Source: Mustelus asterias
Taxonomy: Eukaryota
Reading direction: 5' to 3'
Length of the DNA stretch: 64,000 nt
Assembly: GCF_964213995.1 (NCBI RefSeq)
Contig: NC_135830.1
Location: forward strand, 930,001-994,000
The notes beneath the pieces are model-generated. The model had not been told where the DNA came from, did no database searches, and was given only the letters and a program-made list of their open reading frames with translations. The translations under genes were made by a program, and so were the position numbers. Each line of letters opens with the position of its first letter. The stretch's first letter is position 1. Positions 5,211-57,812 of this stretch are shown in pieces.

Positions 5211-5957
5211 GCAGTCGATATAAGTTCGTACTGCAGTCTATCTCAGAACCCTGCAGCAAGACCAAACCAATCCAATTACCTCTCCCTGTCTCATTATCCC
5301 TGCATCATTTACATATGAATGCCTCTGCCCCACATACGCACCATTATAGCACTGTATCTTTTCCAGACTAATCCCAGTGTCCGGTGCTGTGCCATAAACC
5401 TCGTATCATTTCCATACTACTCCCACTGCCACAGGTTCATCTATAGCCCTGAAGCTTGCACAGATTAATTGCCCTTCCAGCCTACCTCCCCTGTAGATCC
5501 ATAACAAACCCAAACTAATCCACTATTAATGTCGCTTCCAGTAGTCCGGGGTAAATTACAAAGTAATTATGCATATCAATAACTCCCCATAGCACTGCAT
5601 TAATCCCTAAATAAAATAACGTCACTGCTCTCTGCCCTTCACCATACATAATTCCCAAATTAGTTTCACTGTTCCCTCTTTCAGCATAGTCATTTATCAT
5701 TGATGAACTAGAAATATTGGCCCATCTTCGCTCCCTATATCTTTACAGACTCAAACCTAATGCCGACTGTTCACTTTCTCCAACGGTCCCTGTACATACG
5801 CTAAACTAATCGCACTGCTTCACATCATCTCCATCGTTCTCCATCGATGAGAATATTTTCCCATTTTGGCTACTCTCTCCACATCAACCAGTATTAATTC
5901 CAAACTAAACCTACAGGATCAATCCGAACCTATACACAGCATCGCTTCATCACGAGA

Positions 5958-6297
5958 TCATAGAAGTCATAGAAATCCGACAGTGCAGAAGGAGGCCATT
6001 CGGCCCATCGAGTCTGCACCGACCACAATCCCACCCAGGCCCTTCCCCCACATATTTTACCCGCTAATCCCTCTAACCTACACATCCCAGGACTCTAAGG
6101 GGCAATTTTTTAACCTGGCCAATCAACCTAACCCGCACATCTTTGGACTGTGGGAGGAAACTGGAGCACCCGGAGGAAACCCACGCAGACACGAGGAGAA
6201 TGTGCAAACTCCACACAGACAGTGACCCGAGCCGGGAATAGAACCCGGGACCCTGGAGCTGTGAAGCAGCAGTGCTAACCACTGTGCTACCGTGCCG
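5958..6297 (-). mobile_element. HE1-like SINE, young full-length copy
   Basis: A/B-box head (gtggttagcactg; gggttctattccc), core and ttctatga tail; near-identical to the copies at 11606 and 54301. Confidence 0.9.
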
Positions 6298-7146: not shown

Positions 7147-8108
7147 GCGATTTTTTTTTTTTGGCCAGCTTGTGTCTTTATAAGCAATACTAAATTTCTG
7201 TACTGCCAAGCTAATAACTATGGTACACATTTTAAGAAACAACTTTGGTATTGGACAGCCTACTGTCCATAAGTGCTGCCGATCTCTGTTTCCAGAATGC
7301 ATTAGAAAACATTCCATTCACAAAGAAATGTTAGGCTACAGTACTGCGAATGGAATTAAAGGGAAATTTTCCACTTGTTTAGACCAGTGAGGAAGTAGAA
7401 GACAGACTGAAAGCCCAACGGACCCTGAAAGATATAGTGCTTCAGCACTATCAGTCTTTGGTCTCAGCTATTCATTATATGCCTCAGAATTTGGATAACA
7501 CAATTTAAAATTATATGTCCAAGTTTTCTGATCCCGAAATAGTTGGTGGTATATTAATTATTGTAGATGTAGCATAGAATTACAAAGGAGCATGACAATT
7601 TAGGTGAATGGATTAAATTGTGGATGACCTTCCACATAGGTAAATGCGGGGGCAGCTAATTGGGAATAAAGTAAATGCCGGAATTGTTGAAGTGAATGAA
7701 GAAAACAAATGGGGAAAGTGACTTCCAAAATAGGTTAAGAATCCACGTCAGCAAATGACTAAAATAACGAAAAAAATGAATGAAAATTATTCAAAAATGC
7801 CAACTGCAAGTTAGTCTTCAATAACCACAAGGCTGGACAGAAAAGCAGCAGATATTTTGTGCAGCAACAGAAAGTCCTTCCACGAACAAATCTGGAGCAT
7901 CATGAAAAATAATTTAAAGTAGTCAAGATGGAAGTATTGTCCATGAAATAAACACTTTGCCGAAGATGATTGGTGAGGGTAGGGCAATGGATGTTGTCTG
8001 CATGGACTTCAGTAAGGTATTTGATAAGGTCCCTCATGGCAAACAGGTGCAGAAGTCGCTTGGGATAAGAGATGAGCTGGCAAGGTGGATACAGACCTGG
8101 CTCAATCA

Positions 8109-8292
8109 GTATTCTGTAACTTGATTTTGTGTCTCTGTGCCCAGTTTGAGAGCAGATTTCCACTCCATCTGACGAAGGAGCAGCGCTCCGAAAGCTAATG
8201 GCATTTGCTACCAAATAAACCTGTTGGACTTTAATCTGGTTTTGTTAAAACTCTTACTGTGCTTATCCCAGTCCAAGGCCGGCATCTCCACA
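8109..8292 (+). mobile_element. Solo Penelope-like pseudo-LTR with 7-bp TSD (tcaatca)
   Basis: Ends in ...ccggcatctccacatc, matching the 3' end of the Penelope element at 10653; tcaatca at 8102-8108 and 8293-8299. Confidence 0.8.
8165..8201 (+). ncRNA. Minimal type I hammerhead ribozyme motif
   Basis: ccat-CTGACGA-a-ggagc(agc)gctcc-GAAA-gc-TA-atgg: stem I ccat/atgg, intact core, perfect stem II, palindromic minimal stem III (AGCT). Confidence 0.75.
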
Positions 8293-9649
8293 TCAATCAT
8301 AGAACTCAGAGAGTAGAAGTGGAAGTATGTGTTCCTGAATGGAGGGCTGTGACAAGTGGCGTTCCTCAGGGACCAGTGCTGGGACCTATTTTATTTGTAA
8401 TATATATAAATCATTTGGAGAAAAATGTAACTGGTTTGATTAGTAAGTTTGCAGACAACACAAAGGTTGGTGGATTTGCGAATAGAGATGAGGGCCATCA
8501 GAGGAGACAGCAGGACATAGATATGTTGGAGACTTGGGTAGAAAGAGAGCAGATGGAGCTCAATCCGGACAAATGTGAGTTAATGCATTTTGGGAGGTCT
8601 AATGCAGATTGGAAATATACAATAAATGGCAGAACCCTTAAGATTATTGATAGGCAGAGGGGTCTGAGTGCATAGGTACACAGGTCACTGACAGTGGCAA
8701 TGTGGGTGGAGAAGGGAGTCAAGAAGGCATACGGCATGCTTGCGCTCATCGGCCGGGGCATTGAGTTTAAAAATTGGCAAGTCATGTTGCAGCTTTATAG
8801 AACCTTAGTTAGGGCGCACTTGGAATATAGTGATCAATTCTGGTCGCCACACTACCAGAAGGATGTGGAGGCTTTGGAGAGGGTACAGAAAAGATTTACG
8901 AGGATGTTGCCTGGTATGGAGGGCATTAGCTATGAGGAGTGGTTGGAGAAACATGGTTTATTCTTACTAGAATGACGAAGTTTGAGAGGTGAACTGATAG
9001 AAGTCTACAAGATTATGAGAGGTATGGACGGAATAGATGGTCAGAACATTTTCCCATGGTGGAAGGGTCAATTACTAGGGGGCATAGGCTTAAGGTGTGC
9101 GGGGCAAGGTTTAAAGGAGATGTACGAGGCAAGCTGTTTTACACAGGGGGTGCTGGGTGCCTGGAACTCGCTGCTGGAGGAGTTGTGGAAGCAGATACGA
9201 TAGTGACTTATAAGGGGCGTCTTGACAAATGCATGAATAGGATGGGAATAGTCGGATACGGTCCCCAGAATGGTAGGAGTTTTTAGTTCAGTCAGGCAGC
9301 ATGGTCGATGCAGACTAGGAGGGCCGAAGGGCCTGTTCCTGTGCTGTAATTTTCTTTGTTCTCTTTGATCTTTATTCTATCTCAATGTTAGCAGGCGTCG
9401 CAGTATTACATCATGAATAGAAATTCTAGAAACTCGGCTATTATTCCATGCATTCTAAATTCCTAAATGGGGACTTGATCGCTTTCTTTTAAAAATGAGT
9501 CGATCGAGGCAACCAGACCTTTCTGCTTTTGGAGATGTGCACTGAAGAAAGTGGACATGGTCTCCAGCTGAATGTCAGGCCATTCAGAGCGTTGATATCG
9601 AATGCTTTTTCGTGAAAATTATGGTGGAGCTGAGCAACCCTTTCCAACA

Positions 9650-10652
9650 AACAAAGAACAAAGAACAATACAGCACAGGAACAGGCCCTTCGGCCCTCCA
9701 AGCCCGCGCCGCTCCCTGGTCCAAACTGGACCATTCTTTTGTATCCCTCCATTCCCACTCCGTTCATATGGCTGTCCAGATAAGTCTTAAACGTTCCCAG
9801 TGTGTCCGCCTCCACCACCTTGCCTGGCAGCGCATTCCAGGCCCCCACCACCCTCTGTGTAAAATATGTCCGTCTGATATCTGTGTTAAACCTCCCCCCC
9901 TTCACCTTGAACCTATGACCCCTCGTGAACGTCACCACCGACCTGGGGAAAAGCTTCCCACCGTTCACCCTATCCATGCCTTTCATAATTTTATACACCT
10001 CTATTAAGTTTCCCCTCATCCTCCGTCTTTCCAGGGAGAACAACCCCAGTTTACCCAATCTCTCCTCATAACTAAGCCCCTCCATACCAGGTAACATCCT
10101 GGTAAACCTCCTCTGTACTCTCTCCAAAGCCTCCACGTCCTTCTGGTAGTGTGGCGACCAGAACTGGACGCAGTATTCCAGATGCGGCCGAACCAACGTT
10201 CTATACATCTGCAACATCAGACCCCAACTCTTATACTCTATGCCCCGTCCTATAAAGGCAAGCATGCCATATGCCTTCTTCACCACCTTCTTCACCTGTG
10301 ACGTCACTTTCAAGGATCTGTGGACTTGCACACCCAGGTCTCTCTGCGTACCTACACCCTTTATGGTTCTGCCATTTATCATATAGATCCTCCCTACATT
10401 ATTTCTACCAAAATGCATCACTTCGCATTTATCAGGATTGAACTCCATCTGCCATTTCTTTGCCGAAATTTCCAGCCTATCTATATCCTTCTGTAGCTTC
10501 TGCCAATGCTCCGCACTATCTGCAAGTCCTGCCAATTTTGTGTCATCCGCAAACTTACTGATCACCCCAGTTACACCTTCTTCCAGATCATTTATATAAA
10601 TCACAAACAGCAGAGGTCCCAATACAGAGCCCTGCGGAACACCACTAGTCAT
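9650..10652 (-). mobile_element. 5'-truncated young CR1 (TTCTTTG-tail subfamily), open RT C-terminal half
   Basis: [15 protein letters not shown]...KFADDTK...LVRPHLEYC without stops; (caaagaa)n tail. Confidence 0.95.
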
Positions 10653-11595
10653 GATGTGGAGATGCCGGCGTTGGACTGGGGTAAACACAGTAAGAAGTTT
10701 AACAACACCAGGTTAAAGTCCAACAGGTTTATTTGGTAGCAAAAGCCACACAAGCTTTCGAGGCTCTAAGCCCCTTCTTCAGGTGAGTGGGAATTCTGTT
10801 CACAAACAGAATTTATAAAGACACAGACTCAATTTACATGAATAATGGTTGGAATGCGAATACTTACAACTAATCCAGTCTTTAAGAAACAAAACAATGG
10901 GAGTGGAGAGAGCATCAAGACAGGCTAAAAAGATGTGTATTGTCTCCAGACAAGACAGCCAGTGAAACTCTGCAGGTCCACGCAACTGTGGGAGTTACAA
11001 ATATTGTGACATGAACCCAATATCCCGGTTGAGGCCGTCCTTGTGTGTGCGGAACTTGGCTATCAGTTTCTGCTCAGCGACTCTGCGCTGTCGTGTGTCG
11101 CGAAGGCCGCCTTGGAGAACGCTTACCCGAATATCAGAGGCCGAATGCCCGTGACCGCTGAAGTGCTCCCCAACAGGAAGAGAACAGTCTTGCCTGGTGA
11201 TTGTCGAGCGGTGTTCATTCATCCGTTGTCGCAGCGTCTGCATAGTTTCCCCAATGTACCATGCCTCGGGACATCCTTTCTTGCAGCGTATCAGGTAGAC
11301 AACGTTGGCCGAGTTGCAAGAGTATGTACCGTGTACCTGGTGGATGGTGTTCTCACGTGAGATGATGGCATCTGTGTCGATGATCCGGCACGTCTTGCAG
11401 AGGTTGCTGTGGCAGGGTTGTGTGGTGTCTTGGTCACTGTTCTCCTGAAGGCTGGGTAGTTTGCTGCGGACAATGGTCTGTTTGAGGTTGTGCGGTTGTT
11501 TGAAGGCAAGAAGTGGGGGTGTGGGGATGGCCTTGGCGAGATGTTCGTCTTCATCAATGACATGTTGAAGGCTCCGGAGGAGATGCCGTAGCTGA
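10653..11595 (-). mobile_element. 5'-truncated Penelope-like element (GIY-YIG endonuclease end + pseudo-LTR)
   Basis: ORF part 10995-11592: PLLAFKQPHNLKQ...PCHSNLCKTC...CNSANVVYLIRC...WYIGET...LRQRMNEH...VGEHF...GLNRD, the typical Penelope C-terminus; 3' pLTR at 10653-10800. Confidence 0.9.
10749..10785 (-). ncRNA. Minimal hammerhead ribozyme motif in the Penelope pLTR
   Basis: Minus strand: cac-CTGAAGA-aggggcttagagcctc-GAAA-gc-TT-gtg. Confidence 0.65.
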
Positions 11596-11605
11596 CCGTG
11601 GCGGC

Positions 11606-11947
11606 ACGGCAGCACAGTGGTTAGCACTGCTGCTTCACAGCTCCAGGGTCCCGGGTTCGATTCCCGGCTCGGGTCACTGTCTGTGTGGAGTTTGCTTATT
11701 CTCCTCGTGTCTGCGTGGGTTTCCTCCGGGTGCTCAGGTTTCCTCCCACAGTCCAAAGATGTGCGGGTTAGGTTGATTGGTCAGGTTAAAAATTGCCCCT
11801 GAGAGTCCTGAGATGCATAGGTTAGAGGGATTAGTGGGTAAATATGTGGGGGTAGGGCCTGGGTGGGATTGTGGTCGGTGCAGACTCGATGGGCCGAATG
11901 GCCTCCTTCTGTACTGTAGGGTTTCTATGAGTTCTATGATTTCTATG
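11606..11947 (+). mobile_element. HE1-like SINE, full-length
   Basis: gtggttagcactg A box, gggttcgattccc B box, tail gggccgaatggcctccttctg...ttctatga. Confidence 0.9.
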
Positions 11948-18359: not shown

Positions 18360-18505
18360 AGTAAGGAGTTTAACAACACCAGGTTAAAGTCCAACAGGTT
18401 TATTTGGTAGCAAAAGCCACACAAGCTTTCGGAGCCCCAAGCCCCTTCTTCAGGTGAGTCGCCTGAAGAAGGGGCTTAGGGCTCCGAAAGCTTGTGTGGC
18501 TTTTG
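18360..18505. mobile_element. Penelope pLTR-derived fold-back with two head-to-head hammerhead motifs
   Basis: Matches the pLTR at 10689-10787, then inverts. Arms 18411-18457 and 18459-18505 are near-perfect reverse complements. Hammerhead motifs at 18420-18456 (-) and 18460-18496 (+). Confidence 0.8.
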
Positions 18506-54300: not shown

Positions 54301-54647
54301 ACATAGAATCATAGAAACCCTGCAGTGCAGAAAGAGGCCATTTGGCCCATCGAGTCTGCACCGACCAGAATCCCACCCAGGCCCTACCCCCATACCCATA
54401 CATATTTTACCCACTAATCCCTCTAATCTACGCATCTCAGGACTCTAAGGGGCAATTTTACCATAGCCAATCAACCTAACCCGCACATCTTTGGACTGTG
54501 GGAGGAAACCGGAGCACCCGGAGAAAACCCACGCAGAAACGAGGAGAATGTGCAAACTCCGCACAGACAGTGACCCAAGCCGGGAATCGAACCCAGGTCC
54601 CTGGAGCTGTGAAGCAGCAGTGCTAACCACTGTGCTACCGTGCCGCC
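54301..54647 (-). mobile_element. HE1-like SINE, young full-length copy, in the C3-C4 intron
   Basis: Near-identical to 5958-6297. Confidence 0.9.
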
Positions 54648-54963
54648 ATTTCACATTTTTCTTTGCCGCCACATATTTGTCTTTGTGCCATTAGGTTATC
54701 TAGCTGATTGCGAAACCTTTGTGCATTCAGATATAAATGCTTCAACTTGCTTAATATTACGTTTATTTGTATTAATTCGCCAATGCATGATTAATGTTAC
54801 ACTCTCTGACTTCCTCTCCCAACCTGCTTACCTTTAACCAAATGACTACTCTCCTCTACTGCTGAAACTATCGGTCTTCAGCTCACAACTCTGCCATCAC
54901 CCGAATCCTCTTTCTCCTTTAGTTTTAAAACATAACCACATCCAAAATGGTGATAACTTTGTG

Positions 54964-55115
54964 ATGTGGAGATGCCGGCGTTGGACTGGGGTAAACACAG
55001 TAAGGACTCTAACAACACCAGGTTAAAGTCCAACAGGTTTACTTGGGAGCAAACGCCACTTTTGCTACCAAATAAACCTGTTGGGCTTTAACCTGGTGTT
55101 GTTCAACTCCTAACT
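54964..55115. mobile_element. Penelope pLTR-derived fold-back mini-element with ~14-bp TSD
   Basis: Begins atgtggagatgccggcgttggactggggtaaacacag (matches the element end at 10653), internal inverted repeat ~54996-55118, flanked by gtgataactttgtg at 54950-54963 and 55116-55129. Confidence 0.85.
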
Positions 55116-57812
55116 GTGATAACTTTGTGCACATGCATAAATTCTAAATCACTGCACATTCTTCCCTTTTTCTGTCAGCGAGAAACATACAGCATCTCTC
55201 TGAAACTGACGTTCAATATACTCTCCGAATTTACAAACATGCCTACAATGGAACGGACTGAAATGTCTATTATGCATGTCCATTAGTGTAACTTTGTTTT
55301 CGTGCTTACAATAAACCTGTTTCATTCCTCCCAATATCAATATTCTACACGAAAGTTCTTAAGAAAATGTGATCATTCTAATTACTATGACTTACGTTTT
55401 GCCTCCTTCCAGAGTGTCAGATGTGAACAGGTTCATCTCTGGTGGGATCTCTGATTAAATCATTATATTTCTTCTCTTAACCTTCACTTCTTCAAGAATG
55501 TAACTGACTAACTCTACCAGGAAGAAACTGCATAATTCATTTGTGCATTTTCCCGAAGACCTTCGCATAAGATTTACTGCCCAGAATTAGGCACCCGATT
55601 CAATTTTAGTTCAAAGCTGTGTTGAATAAAGTTTGAACAGCATGTCCTTGATCAAGAGCGAAGTGTTTCTGTTTGAACAGCCCGAGATCTTGTTTTCTTT
55701 AACAATTTTCTCAACCTTCCCGGCACTCCTCACTGATTTGCACACATGCATCGCTAACTCCGCCTGTTCCTAAAAACGTTTTTGGAACGGCAACCTTTTT
55801 TTATATTGGTTTTCCTGAATTGGCGTCAACATAAAACATTAGGAGGGGAAGAAGCCACGAAAAGTTTGGAAGTTTCACTGAAATATAACGACCCATCGAG
55901 TTAATTTGAAACAACAGAGCACCAACGTGAACGCATTTTGCAACAAAATAGCAGACAGTAAAATCCCCGTGCATCAAACAGATTGGATTCACCAACTGGA
56001 ATCTTCAGGTAATCCCCCTCGTCATTCTTCTGAGATGCATTTGGTTTATTTCCCAACAGTTAACTTGGAACTATATGAGGAAGCGTGAAACCTTTAACAG
56101 TCTCGTTTAAACATTGTTTTCTGTTATTACATCTAACAAGGAAGGTCACTTTGCGTGTCTCTGCCAAATGCCCTTTTGAATCTGTTCCTCGGCAAAAATA
56201 AGCGCCCATCCCTAATTGTCTTTCAGAAGGTAATGGTGAGTCACCTTCCTGAAATGCTGCCATCAATGTGGTGTTGGTACGTCCATAGTGCAGTTATGAT
56301 GGGGTTTACATGATTTTGCCTCAGGGAAAATGAAGAAAAGGACCCATATATTTCCAAGTCAGGATGTATTGTGTATTGGAAATATACTGCCTCCTTTTAA
56401 TATCGCTGGGCCAAAATCCTGGATGTCCCTCCCCAACAGAACTGTGGGTATACTTCAACCGCGTGGATTGCAGCCGCTCAAGAAGGCAGCTCACCCCTAT
56501 CTTCTCAAGGGTATTCAGCGATGAGAAATAAATGTTGGCCCAGCCAGCGACGCCCACAGATTGTTCCCGGATATCTGTGTGAAGCCAGGATATCAACAGT
56601 CTAATTTAACTCGAATGCATCAGAGCCACGTGAAGTCTTTACTTCATCAGAAGTGGAAACATGCCAGCTCCCAAAATGGCCCTTTTGGTCGTAGGATGGT
56701 GAAAGAATTGGTCCCACCATATTTTCTGGATTTGACTAGACTACTGTAACTTCCAGCAGCTACTGTGTTAATGTCGATAACCTGGTGAAGCACAGCAGCC
56801 GAACTTGGGAGCTATTACATTGCATAGGAAGGTATTACAACCTAATGATGCTTCCCAATCGTATATGCTCCATTTTACCAGCTTGGCAAGCGTTAGTCAG
56901 TTTTGTTCGTGTAATTGTAAGGTGGGTGCCTCGGTTATTGTAGCCAAAGGACTTTCCTCATGTGTCAACATGTGCAGCAAAGACCAGTGATCACTGTACA
57001 ATGAGAGCATCACAAGTTAATTGGATTTTCATTTGATTGGAACTCGTACATGGCAAGATATACTAAATAGAGAATTGAACTATTATTTATTGCTACTGTA
57101 CAAATAAATGGTGGCTGGAGACGGGATAGAGAACAGACAAGATCAATTAAACCATCAAATGCCAGAGCATAACCTGATATTCTGGGAAGTTTTAATTTTT
57201 CCCGCTATTGTAGAGATGCCGGTGCAATTATTGCAGAGATAATGCTTTTATCCTGAAAGAAAAATCCAATCAAAAATGAAAAGTAAATCATGAGAGGTGA
57301 TTTCTTCGATCAAAAGCGCTGGTCACTTGATTAGTTTTAGGGCATGAAAACTGTATTTGATTCGACCCTGTGACATCTATCCCACTTGTTACTGTACTTT
57401 TAAGACTAGAAATGTGCGCATTTCTTTCCATTATTTGGTTGAATTCCATAACAGTTGGTTGTTTCTGCCTTTCAGTTGGCTGAATCGGAGCACACAGTAT
57501 TGTGCTGCATTAAAACAGCAAGTTCAGCATGTTCTCATCAGCAGAAAACTGCGCAATTAATTAACAGACATTTTTATCCTTCAGCTGTTCATTTCACTGG
57601 ATTCTCAGGTAGCTTGCCTGGGCCTACCAATTGAGTATTGACTATCGTCTCCTTTCCGAGGAGAAGACACATTAATTGGTGTCCAAACATTTTGGATTTG
57701 CTGGACTCTACTTCGATCTGCTCGTTAGTATATTATCTTTTGGATATTGTGGCCGGATTAACTGCAAAGTCTTATTTTTGTAAAAAAAAACATTCCAACA
57801 AACTGTGCTTAC

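What the first reader, a model, noticed from the sequence alone, without database searches (positions are those of the whole stretch)
8109..8292. Hammerhead-ribozyme-bearing Penelope pseudo-LTR inserted as a solo ~185-bp unit
Seen: a short insert in a CR1, flanked by a tcaatca duplication, contains a clean minimal hammerhead (ccat CTGACGA a ggagc-agc-gctcc GAAA gc TA atgg). Its 3' end matches the Penelope element at 10653, but its stems I and II differ while still base-pairing (ccat/atgg here vs cac/gtg there). Established: Penelope-like elements carry minimal hammerheads in their pLTRs; these have a palindromic stem III and are thought to cleave as dimers. Inference: the compensatory differences suggest selection on the fold, and the pLTR may be mobilised alone as a small non-autonomous, retrozyme-like element in this shark.
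Basis: partly seen in the sequence, partly recalled or inferred. Interest (0 to 1): 0.7.

Follow-up and report, generated by a model that had tools for sequence, protein, structure and literature searches.

The report
Truncated Penelope copy, not a retrozyme
This 184-base insert is one shortened copy of a very abundant protein-coding Penelope-like jumping gene with an already known tiny hammerhead motif, not a self-spreading mini-element, but other copies of the family often begin near the predicted cut site (one is joined there to a U6atac RNA copy), which likely records the ribozyme cutting in living cells.

Summary
The hammerhead motif (8165-8201), the 7-bp duplication and the CR1 host are real. 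The reading as a discrete, non-autonomous ~185-bp unit is not supported. The motif has 8,740 exact genomic copies and ends an RT + GIY-YIG Penelope-like family (Neptune/Nematis-type linker). Of the 29 closest copies, 28 continue upstream of 8109. In two samples of 100 copies, only 3 each begin at 179-199 nt, which is the background rate (3.3 expected). The window copy is a random 5' truncation joined through 5- and 3-nt microhomologies. Stem covariation separates subfamilies; copies within the subfamily decay one-sidedly. Two length classes are enriched elsewhere: about 130-149 nt (5-fold, just upstream of the hammerhead, likely the transcription start) and about 91-100 nt (4-fold, around the predicted cut). 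One insertion joins U6atac exactly at the cut. This suggests cleavage in vivo, but the hump is broad, reverse-transcriptase stalling is not excluded, and other positions were not searched for chimeras. Verdict: an ordinary member of a known class, with a modest family-level lead.

The parts
8102..8108 (+). Left copy of the 7-bp target-site duplication; 8104-8108 is also element sequence (5' microhomology)
8109..8292 (+). 5'-truncated 3' end (pLTR, tail included) of Penelope-like subfamily A; 184 nt, 189 with the 5' microhomology
8150..8158 (+). Zone where family 5' ends pile up (135-143 nt from the 3' end); inferred transcription start. The window copy runs about 45 nt past it
   Evidence: the transcription-start reading is inferred
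8165..8201 (+). Minimal type-I hammerhead motif; palindromic AGCT at 8193-8196 would form helix III in a dimer; predicted cut 8197/8198
   Evidence: 8,740 exact copies and 0 for the reversed control; cleavage untested
8258..8295 (+). Optional tail of about 31-36 nt between the two 3' end classes; 8293-8295 is shared with the right duplication
   Evidence: bimodal 3' ends, 51 with and 45 without tail of 100
8293..8299 (+). Right copy of the target-site duplication. The empty site reads CTG-16 nt-CAG (8097-8099 and 8307-8309)
7940..9373 (+). Host: decayed CR1-type LINE RT fragment, interrupted by the insert (limits approximate; the CR1 name is recalled from the translated motifs)
10652..11598 (-). 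Subfamily B Penelope-like copy with GIY-YIG remnant, hammerhead at 10749-10785 and a TATA-like hexamer at 10812-10817, 29 nt upstream of the base (10788) where B 5' ends peak

Best explanation
The insert is a 5'-truncated copy of the 3' end of an abundant RT- and endonuclease-encoding Penelope-like family, likely made by that family's own target-primed reverse transcription. Shown: family identity, copy number, colinearity with RT and GIY-YIG, two 3' end classes, a continuous spread of 5' ends, the duplication and the microhomologies. Inferred mechanism: the endonuclease made a 7-nt staggered cut inside a CR1; RT started at the outer (tail) initiation site, copied 184-189 nt of a transcript that extended upstream of the pLTR start, stopped at an arbitrary point and joined through 5 nt of microhomology. 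The hammerhead came along as a passenger. As a lone monomer with no helix III and no partner it is predicted to be inactive. At family level, the two enriched short classes likely mark real RNA 5' ends: the transcription start (about 135-143 nt) and, in a minority of templates, the hammerhead cut (95 nt).
For: 28 of the 29 closest copies continue upstream of 8109. L121 carries RT (Pfam RVT_1, 42.4 bits, above cut-off) and GIY-YIG (17.7 bits, below cut-off; the window B copy passes at 23.5) colinear with this pLTR. 5' ends span 131 to >1,740 nt in 100 hammerhead-anchored copies and 77 to >1,740 nt in 100 3'-anchored copies; 179-199 nt holds 3 copies against 3.3 expected. 32 of 100 reach the ORF stop; 65 of 100 have an inverted partner arm; 51 carry and 45 lack the tail. 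All of these are described features of Penelope insertions (PMC8557442, PMC3846280, PMC11167929). Within 208 A-type motifs no pair shows a two-sided change and most departures look like CpG decay (one of nine pairs was fixed by my filter).
Against: Both samples are the first 100 matches on one chromosome and require an exact anchor, so they favour young copies. The two arms of one insertion were counted separately. About 36 of 100 copies fall in two short enriched classes, so truncation is not purely random. No full-length intact copy was recovered (the longest stretch used has frameshifts and covers about 1,740 nt), so present-day autonomy is not shown.
Confidence: 0.9

Rival explanations
1. 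The pLTR moves by itself as a discrete ~185-nt non-autonomous, retrozyme-like element.
For: The window copy has no ORF, a clean duplication and an intact motif. Xenopus retrozymes are related to pLTRs (bioRxiv 10.64898/2026.07.22.740005). One head-to-tail 153-nt unit behind a longer copy was seen (L083).
Against: No excess at this length (3 vs 3.3). None of the 29 closest copies shares the boundary. A same-strand second hammerhead is present in only 2 of 100 copies and an opposite-strand one in 40 of 100 (downstream flank only about 300 nt for most loci). The 5' boundary is explained by microhomology.
Confidence: 0.05
2. Family level: the 91-100-nt class records hammerhead self-cleavage in vivo, with RT running off the 5'-OH end of the cut RNA.
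For: 4.3-fold excess in the 3'-anchored sample (13 vs 3.0). In 100 of 2,695 filtered copies, 38 of 89 non-deletion junctions lie at 94-97 and 22 are spread over 102-125. In subfamily B, whose cut lies 2 nt further out, hand-counted modes are 95 and 97 (8 and 7 of 34). One head-to-head insertion has U6atac plus five T joined to the first base after the cut in both arms, the junction expected from ligation of a cyclic-phosphate RNA to a 5'-OH end (PMC6789731).
Against: A second filter gives a broad hump, not a spike: 11, 19, 17, 16, 13, 10, 6, 6 at 93-100 nt plus 2 deletions (hand count, 100 of 668), so many ends lie beyond the cut. A short inverted repeat at the cut favours fold-back there regardless of cleavage. 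The mismatch filters admit or exclude perfect fold-back classes wholesale. The U6atac case is one locus, found by looking only at the cut. No such chimera appeared at the B cut (100 of 156 hits viewed, 20 loci scanned with Rfam). For anole PAc, cleavage was dispensable in vitro and no reads began at the cut (PMC11167929).
Confidence: 0.6
3. Family level: both enriched classes come from RT pausing and fold-back at structured or palindromic RNA around the hammerhead, with no cleavage and no transcription start involved.
For: Many junctions in both zones are near-perfect palindromes. The 93-100 hump has a tail past the cut. A stall would also shift with the motif in B.
Against: Copies without an inverted arm are also enriched (5 of 35 at 93-95, one of them an internal deletion; 7 at 138-143). 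Ends are scarce inside the strongest stem (109-129 nt: 1 of 78 at risk). The B upstream peak sits 29 nt from a TATA-like hexamer (hand count 14 of 100). The U6atac junction is not a fold-back.
Confidence: 0.3

Closest known systems
Minimal hammerheads in pLTRs of metazoan Penelope-like elements (Cervera and De la Pena 2014, PMC4209133; parts 1-2 of 4 read)
   Same: No helix III, palindromic 15.2-16.2, extra base between 9 and 10.1, G10.1-C11.1, short helix I; thousands of single motifs per vertebrate genome attributed to truncated elements; covarying consensus families
   Different: Helix II here is 5-6 bp rather than 7-8. In the parts I read they list fish, coelacanth, frog and reptiles, no cartilaginous fish, and state that there is no in vivo evidence of cleavage; supplements not seen.
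EN+ Penelope-like insertions of the Neptune/Nematis type (PMC8557442 and PMC3846280, passages read)
   Same: C-terminal GIY-YIG with a CX4CxxC linker, frequent 5' truncation, inverted partner arm, optional 30-40 bp tail, solo pLTRs, microhomology 5' junctions, TATA plus initiator in the pLTR
   Different: The pile-ups of 5' ends at the motif's upstream edge and near the cut are not described in the passages read. The clade was assigned by motif, not by tree.
Anole Poseidon PAc (Frangieh et al. 2024, PMC11167929; parts 1-2 of 4 read)
   Same: Two internal RT start sites that define the tail; both strands cut and extended
   Different: The PAc ORF starts inside its hammerhead, whereas here the ATG after the cut meets a stop after 6 codons. 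PAc RNA-seq showed no reads at the cut; here genomic ends are enriched near it.
Animal non-LTR retrozymes (bioRxiv 10.64898/2026.07.22.740005; parts 1-3 of 5 read)
   Same: Type-I hammerhead in a pLTR-related, non-coding sequence
   Different: They are defined as tandem repeats with at least two consecutive hammerhead units. This is a single copy of no fixed length from a coding family.
U6/L1 and U6atac/L1 chimeric pseudogenes (Moldovan et al. 2019, PMC6789731, passages read)
   Same: Full-length snRNA plus five T joined to a 5'-truncated retroelement (locus L413)
   Different: The partner is a Penelope-like element and the junction is the predicted ribozyme cut; one locus only.

Membership tests
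EN+ Penelope-like element | RT followed by a C-terminal GIY-YIG in the family | tested here: met
   L121 RVT_1 above cut-off; GIY-YIG below cut-off in L121 and above it in the window B copy, about 90% identical in protein
EN+ Penelope-like element | 5' truncation, inverted partner arm, optional 30-40 bp tail | tested here: met
EN+ Penelope-like element | RT groups with PLE clades in a tree | not tested
   No named PLE references on hand; clade from the linker motif only
Neptune/Nematis type | CX2-5CxxC motif in the RT-EN linker | tested here: met
   CX4CxxC in L121 and the window B copy; definition in PMC8557442
Minimal type-I hammerhead | Conserved core, helices I and II, palindromic 15.2-16.2, G10.1-C11.1, extra base after 9 | tested here: met
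Minimal type-I hammerhead | Self-cleavage as a dimer | not testable with these tools
   Only indirect genomic signs; the predicted dimer fold did not give the catalytic form
Non-LTR retrozyme | Tandem array with at least two consecutive hammerhead units | tested here: not met
   Window copy is single; 2 of 100 copies have a same-strand second motif in the DNA held
Non-LTR retrozyme / non-autonomous element | Discrete unit length with no coding parent sequence upstream | tested here: not met
Non-LTR retrozyme | Circular RNA expression | not testable with these tools
   No raw RNA reads available
RtcB-type snRNA chimera (locus L413) | Full-length U6-class RNA ending in 4-5 T joined directly to the retroelement | tested here: met
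   Rfam U6atac 118.4 bits, model 1-126; ligation itself not testable

The most novel reading that the evidence does not exclude
The family's dead copies are a base-resolution record of its RNA ends. RT starting at the pLTR tail of unit-length transcripts runs off either at the transcription start just upstream of the hammerhead or at the hammerhead cut, so short solo pLTRs are strong-stop-like by-products. The cut end is a real 5'-OH that was ligated to U6atac. That would be genomic proof that a metazoan Penelope minimal hammerhead cleaves in the germ line.
Probability: 0.5. Interest if true: 0.65.

Novelty: new member of a known kind. Interest (0 to 1): 0.38.

Why it matters
The insert itself is ordinary: one of tens of thousands of truncated Penelope ends. 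What could matter is the family-level record. Whether these weak minimal hammerheads cleave in vivo is stated as open (PMC4209133), and the one biochemical study found cleavage dispensable and saw no cut-site reads (PMC11167929). An excess of genomic starts near the scissile bond, plus a U6atac fusion at that bond, makes the question testable from genome data alone and names the exact bond and start site to look for in RNA.

Tried and rejected
Rfam at gathering and E-value thresholds found no hammerhead family; uninformative for motifs without helix III. Folding z-scores were not significant. The two-copy fold did not return the catalytic dimer; uninformative. Sequencing runs: no RNA holder listed and no raw reads, so no reads were laid. 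Automatic duplication calling found 6 nt or more in only 10 of 31 non-inverted copies, partly because short inverted tail pieces hide the boundary, so it was not used. One B pattern had a wrong spacer and gave 4 hits (corrected). The first narrow B list was 66% a full-length 2-nt-shorter variant, leaving 34 usable junctions. A cap-derived extra G at the upstream ends was considered; it is confounded by G templated from inverted arms, so I dropped it. No snRNA chimera at the B cut among 100 of 156 hits viewed and 20 loci scanned. Lunse et al. 2017 was not held; I know it only through a review (PMC6765202, section 11 part 2 and passages). Paper searches listed no report of Penelope 5' ends mapping to the cut or of U6atac-Penelope fusions; subscription papers and supplements were not seen.

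Full report
Observation. The sequence at 8109-8292 is as described. The hammerhead motif spans 8165-8201 and the predicted cut lies between 8197 and 8198, 95 nt from the element's 3' end at 8292. Below, length means the distance from a copy's 5' end to that 3' end; the window copy is 184. Rfam finds no hammerhead and the fold is not unusually stable, so the identification rests on the motif's match to the published minimal type (PMC4209133) and on its family. The duplication is real: 4 of the 5 closest uninterrupted CR1 relatives give a 7-nt overlap, one gives 8, among 19 pairings. The empty site reads CTG-16 nt-CAG, the target signature noted in earlier scan notes.

Family. The genome is 3.68 Gb. 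The 37-nt motif has 8,740 exact copies with 0 for the reversed control, and a 32-nt anchor nearer the 3' end has 21,008. The 40 scored best matches are 94-100% identical. Of the 29 closest other copies, 28 continue upstream of 8109 with shared sequence, and the last 5 nt of the window's left duplication are that shared sequence; the first 3 nt of the right one are the element's end. Upstream lies a GIY-YIG domain and then RT, with a CX4CxxC linker that marks the Neptune/Nematis type. The copy at 10652 belongs to a sister subfamily (B), 80.6% identical over the whole insert.

Test of the discrete unit. Among the first 100 motif-bearing copies on contig C1, lengths run from 131 to more than 1,740 and 3 fall at 179-199. 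Among the first 100 3'-anchored copies, lengths run from 77 to more than 1,740 and 3 fall at 179-199, against 3.3 expected from the 150-600 baseline. Of these 100, 32 reach the ORF stop, 65 have an inverted partner arm, 51 carry the tail and 45 lack it. These are the described marks of Penelope insertions (PMC8557442; PMC3846280, which also reports solo pLTRs; PMC11167929). A second same-strand motif was found for 2 of 100 copies, so the tandem criterion for retrozymes is not met. Both samples favour young copies and count the two arms of one insertion separately.

Covariation. Among 314 distinct motifs in the fetched loci, subfamily classes keep the core invariant and the stems paired; two pairs change on both sides, loops vary, and one outer pair is broken in B1. 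Within 208 A-type motifs no two-sided change occurs and most departures look like CpG decay (one pair was fixed by the filter). Selection therefore acted on active parent elements, as already reported for other genomes, and not visibly on inserted copies. The window copy differs from the majority at 5 positions, none in the motif.

Where 5' ends do pile up. Two zones are enriched in the 3'-anchored sample: 130-149 (23 vs 4.5 expected) and 91-100 (13 vs 3.0). The first lies just upstream of the motif, with about 29 of 100 motif-bearing copies at 135-143 and a mode at 138-139 (one is a mis-call of a longer copy); 2,892 copies pass a filter for this zone. In B the matching peak is 6 nt before the core (14 of 100 by hand count, 10 at 7, 7 at 5), 29 nt from a TATA-like hexamer in the window's B copy. 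I infer a transcription start, in line with pLTR promoters (PMC2377424). A second B class ends at a 6-bp palindrome and is plain fold-back.

The cut-site zone. In 100 of 2,695 filtered A copies, 11 were set aside as deletions or direct repeats. Of the other 89, 38 begin at 94-97, none at 98-101, 22 at 102-125, and 18 at 91, many of them mirror arms of the same junctions. A second filter, which excludes the main fold-back class, gives a broad hump: 11, 19, 17, 16, 13, 10, 6, 6 at 93-100 plus 2 deletions (hand count, 100 of 668). So many ends lie beyond the cut and cannot come from cleaved RNA. In B, cuts are predicted at 97 (B1) and 95 (B2); hand-counted modes are 97 and 95 (7 and 8 of 34), a weak shift that a stall would also give. 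Looking for a T-run at the A cut gave 18 hits; two are the arms of one insertion with a 7-bp duplication in which U6atac plus five T is joined to the first base after the cut. That is the form made when a cyclic-phosphate snRNA is ligated to a 5'-OH end (PMC6789731). It is one locus, other positions were not searched, and none was seen at the B cut. I put in vivo cleavage of a minority of templates at 0.6.

Mechanism. Shown: family, architecture, end distributions, junctions. Inferred: the element's nuclease cut the CR1 with a 7-nt stagger; RT began at the tail site, copied a transcript that reached upstream of the pLTR start, stopped at random about 45 nt beyond that start and joined by microhomology. 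The motif is a passenger, predicted to be inactive as a monomer (PMC4209133; review PMC6765202). The short enriched classes would be run-offs at the RNA's 5' end, capped or cut.

Novelty. The insert is a new member of a known kind. Seven paper searches listed no report of cut-site-mapped Penelope ends or U6atac-Penelope fusions; Lunse et al. 2017 was not held and no supplements were read, so such data may exist there. Earlier unchecked scan notes report the cut-site excess in this genome, the upstream pile-up elsewhere and U6 fusions in another genome; I reached the two pile-ups before consulting them, and the U6 note prompted the search that found the U6atac locus. Interest 0.38.

Noticed in passing
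L413:1220-1600 (same locus as L412): Head-to-head Penelope insertion with a 7-bp duplication; both arms carry U6atac joined by five T to the first base after the predicted cut. The arms differ by an 8-nt gap in U6atac, one substitution there, and the A/B diagnostic site (such mixed pairs were 5 of 167 counted), which might mean two RNA templates.
   Followed up: partly
window 54962-55118: Small inverted Penelope pair with a duplication of about 13 bp; one arm begins at or next to the predicted cut of a B2/C-type motif.
   Followed up: partly
window 18360-18505: Inverted B pair whose junction lies at the base where B 5' ends peak (6 nt before the core); the same junction class recurs about 6 times in 100 listed hits.
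   Followed up: partly
window 8097-8309: The empty target reads CTG-16 nt-CAG, matching the spaced palindromic target reported in earlier scan notes; here the duplication is 7 bp.
   Followed up: partly
L044, L058, L096, L158, L181: Copies scored as non-inverted often have 10-15 nt of the reverse-complement tail at their 5' junction, suggesting priming from both cut strands even for apparently single copies.
   Followed up: no
L083: A 153-nt subfamily A unit sits head-to-tail directly behind a longer copy of an older subfamily, giving two same-strand hammerheads 153 nt apart, a natural candidate for dimer cleavage.
   Followed up: no
window 5954-6297, 11602-11943, 54302-54648 and others: A ~340-bp repeat with a tRNA-like head and CR1-like tail occurs many times in the window (SINE; family name not tested).
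   Followed up: no
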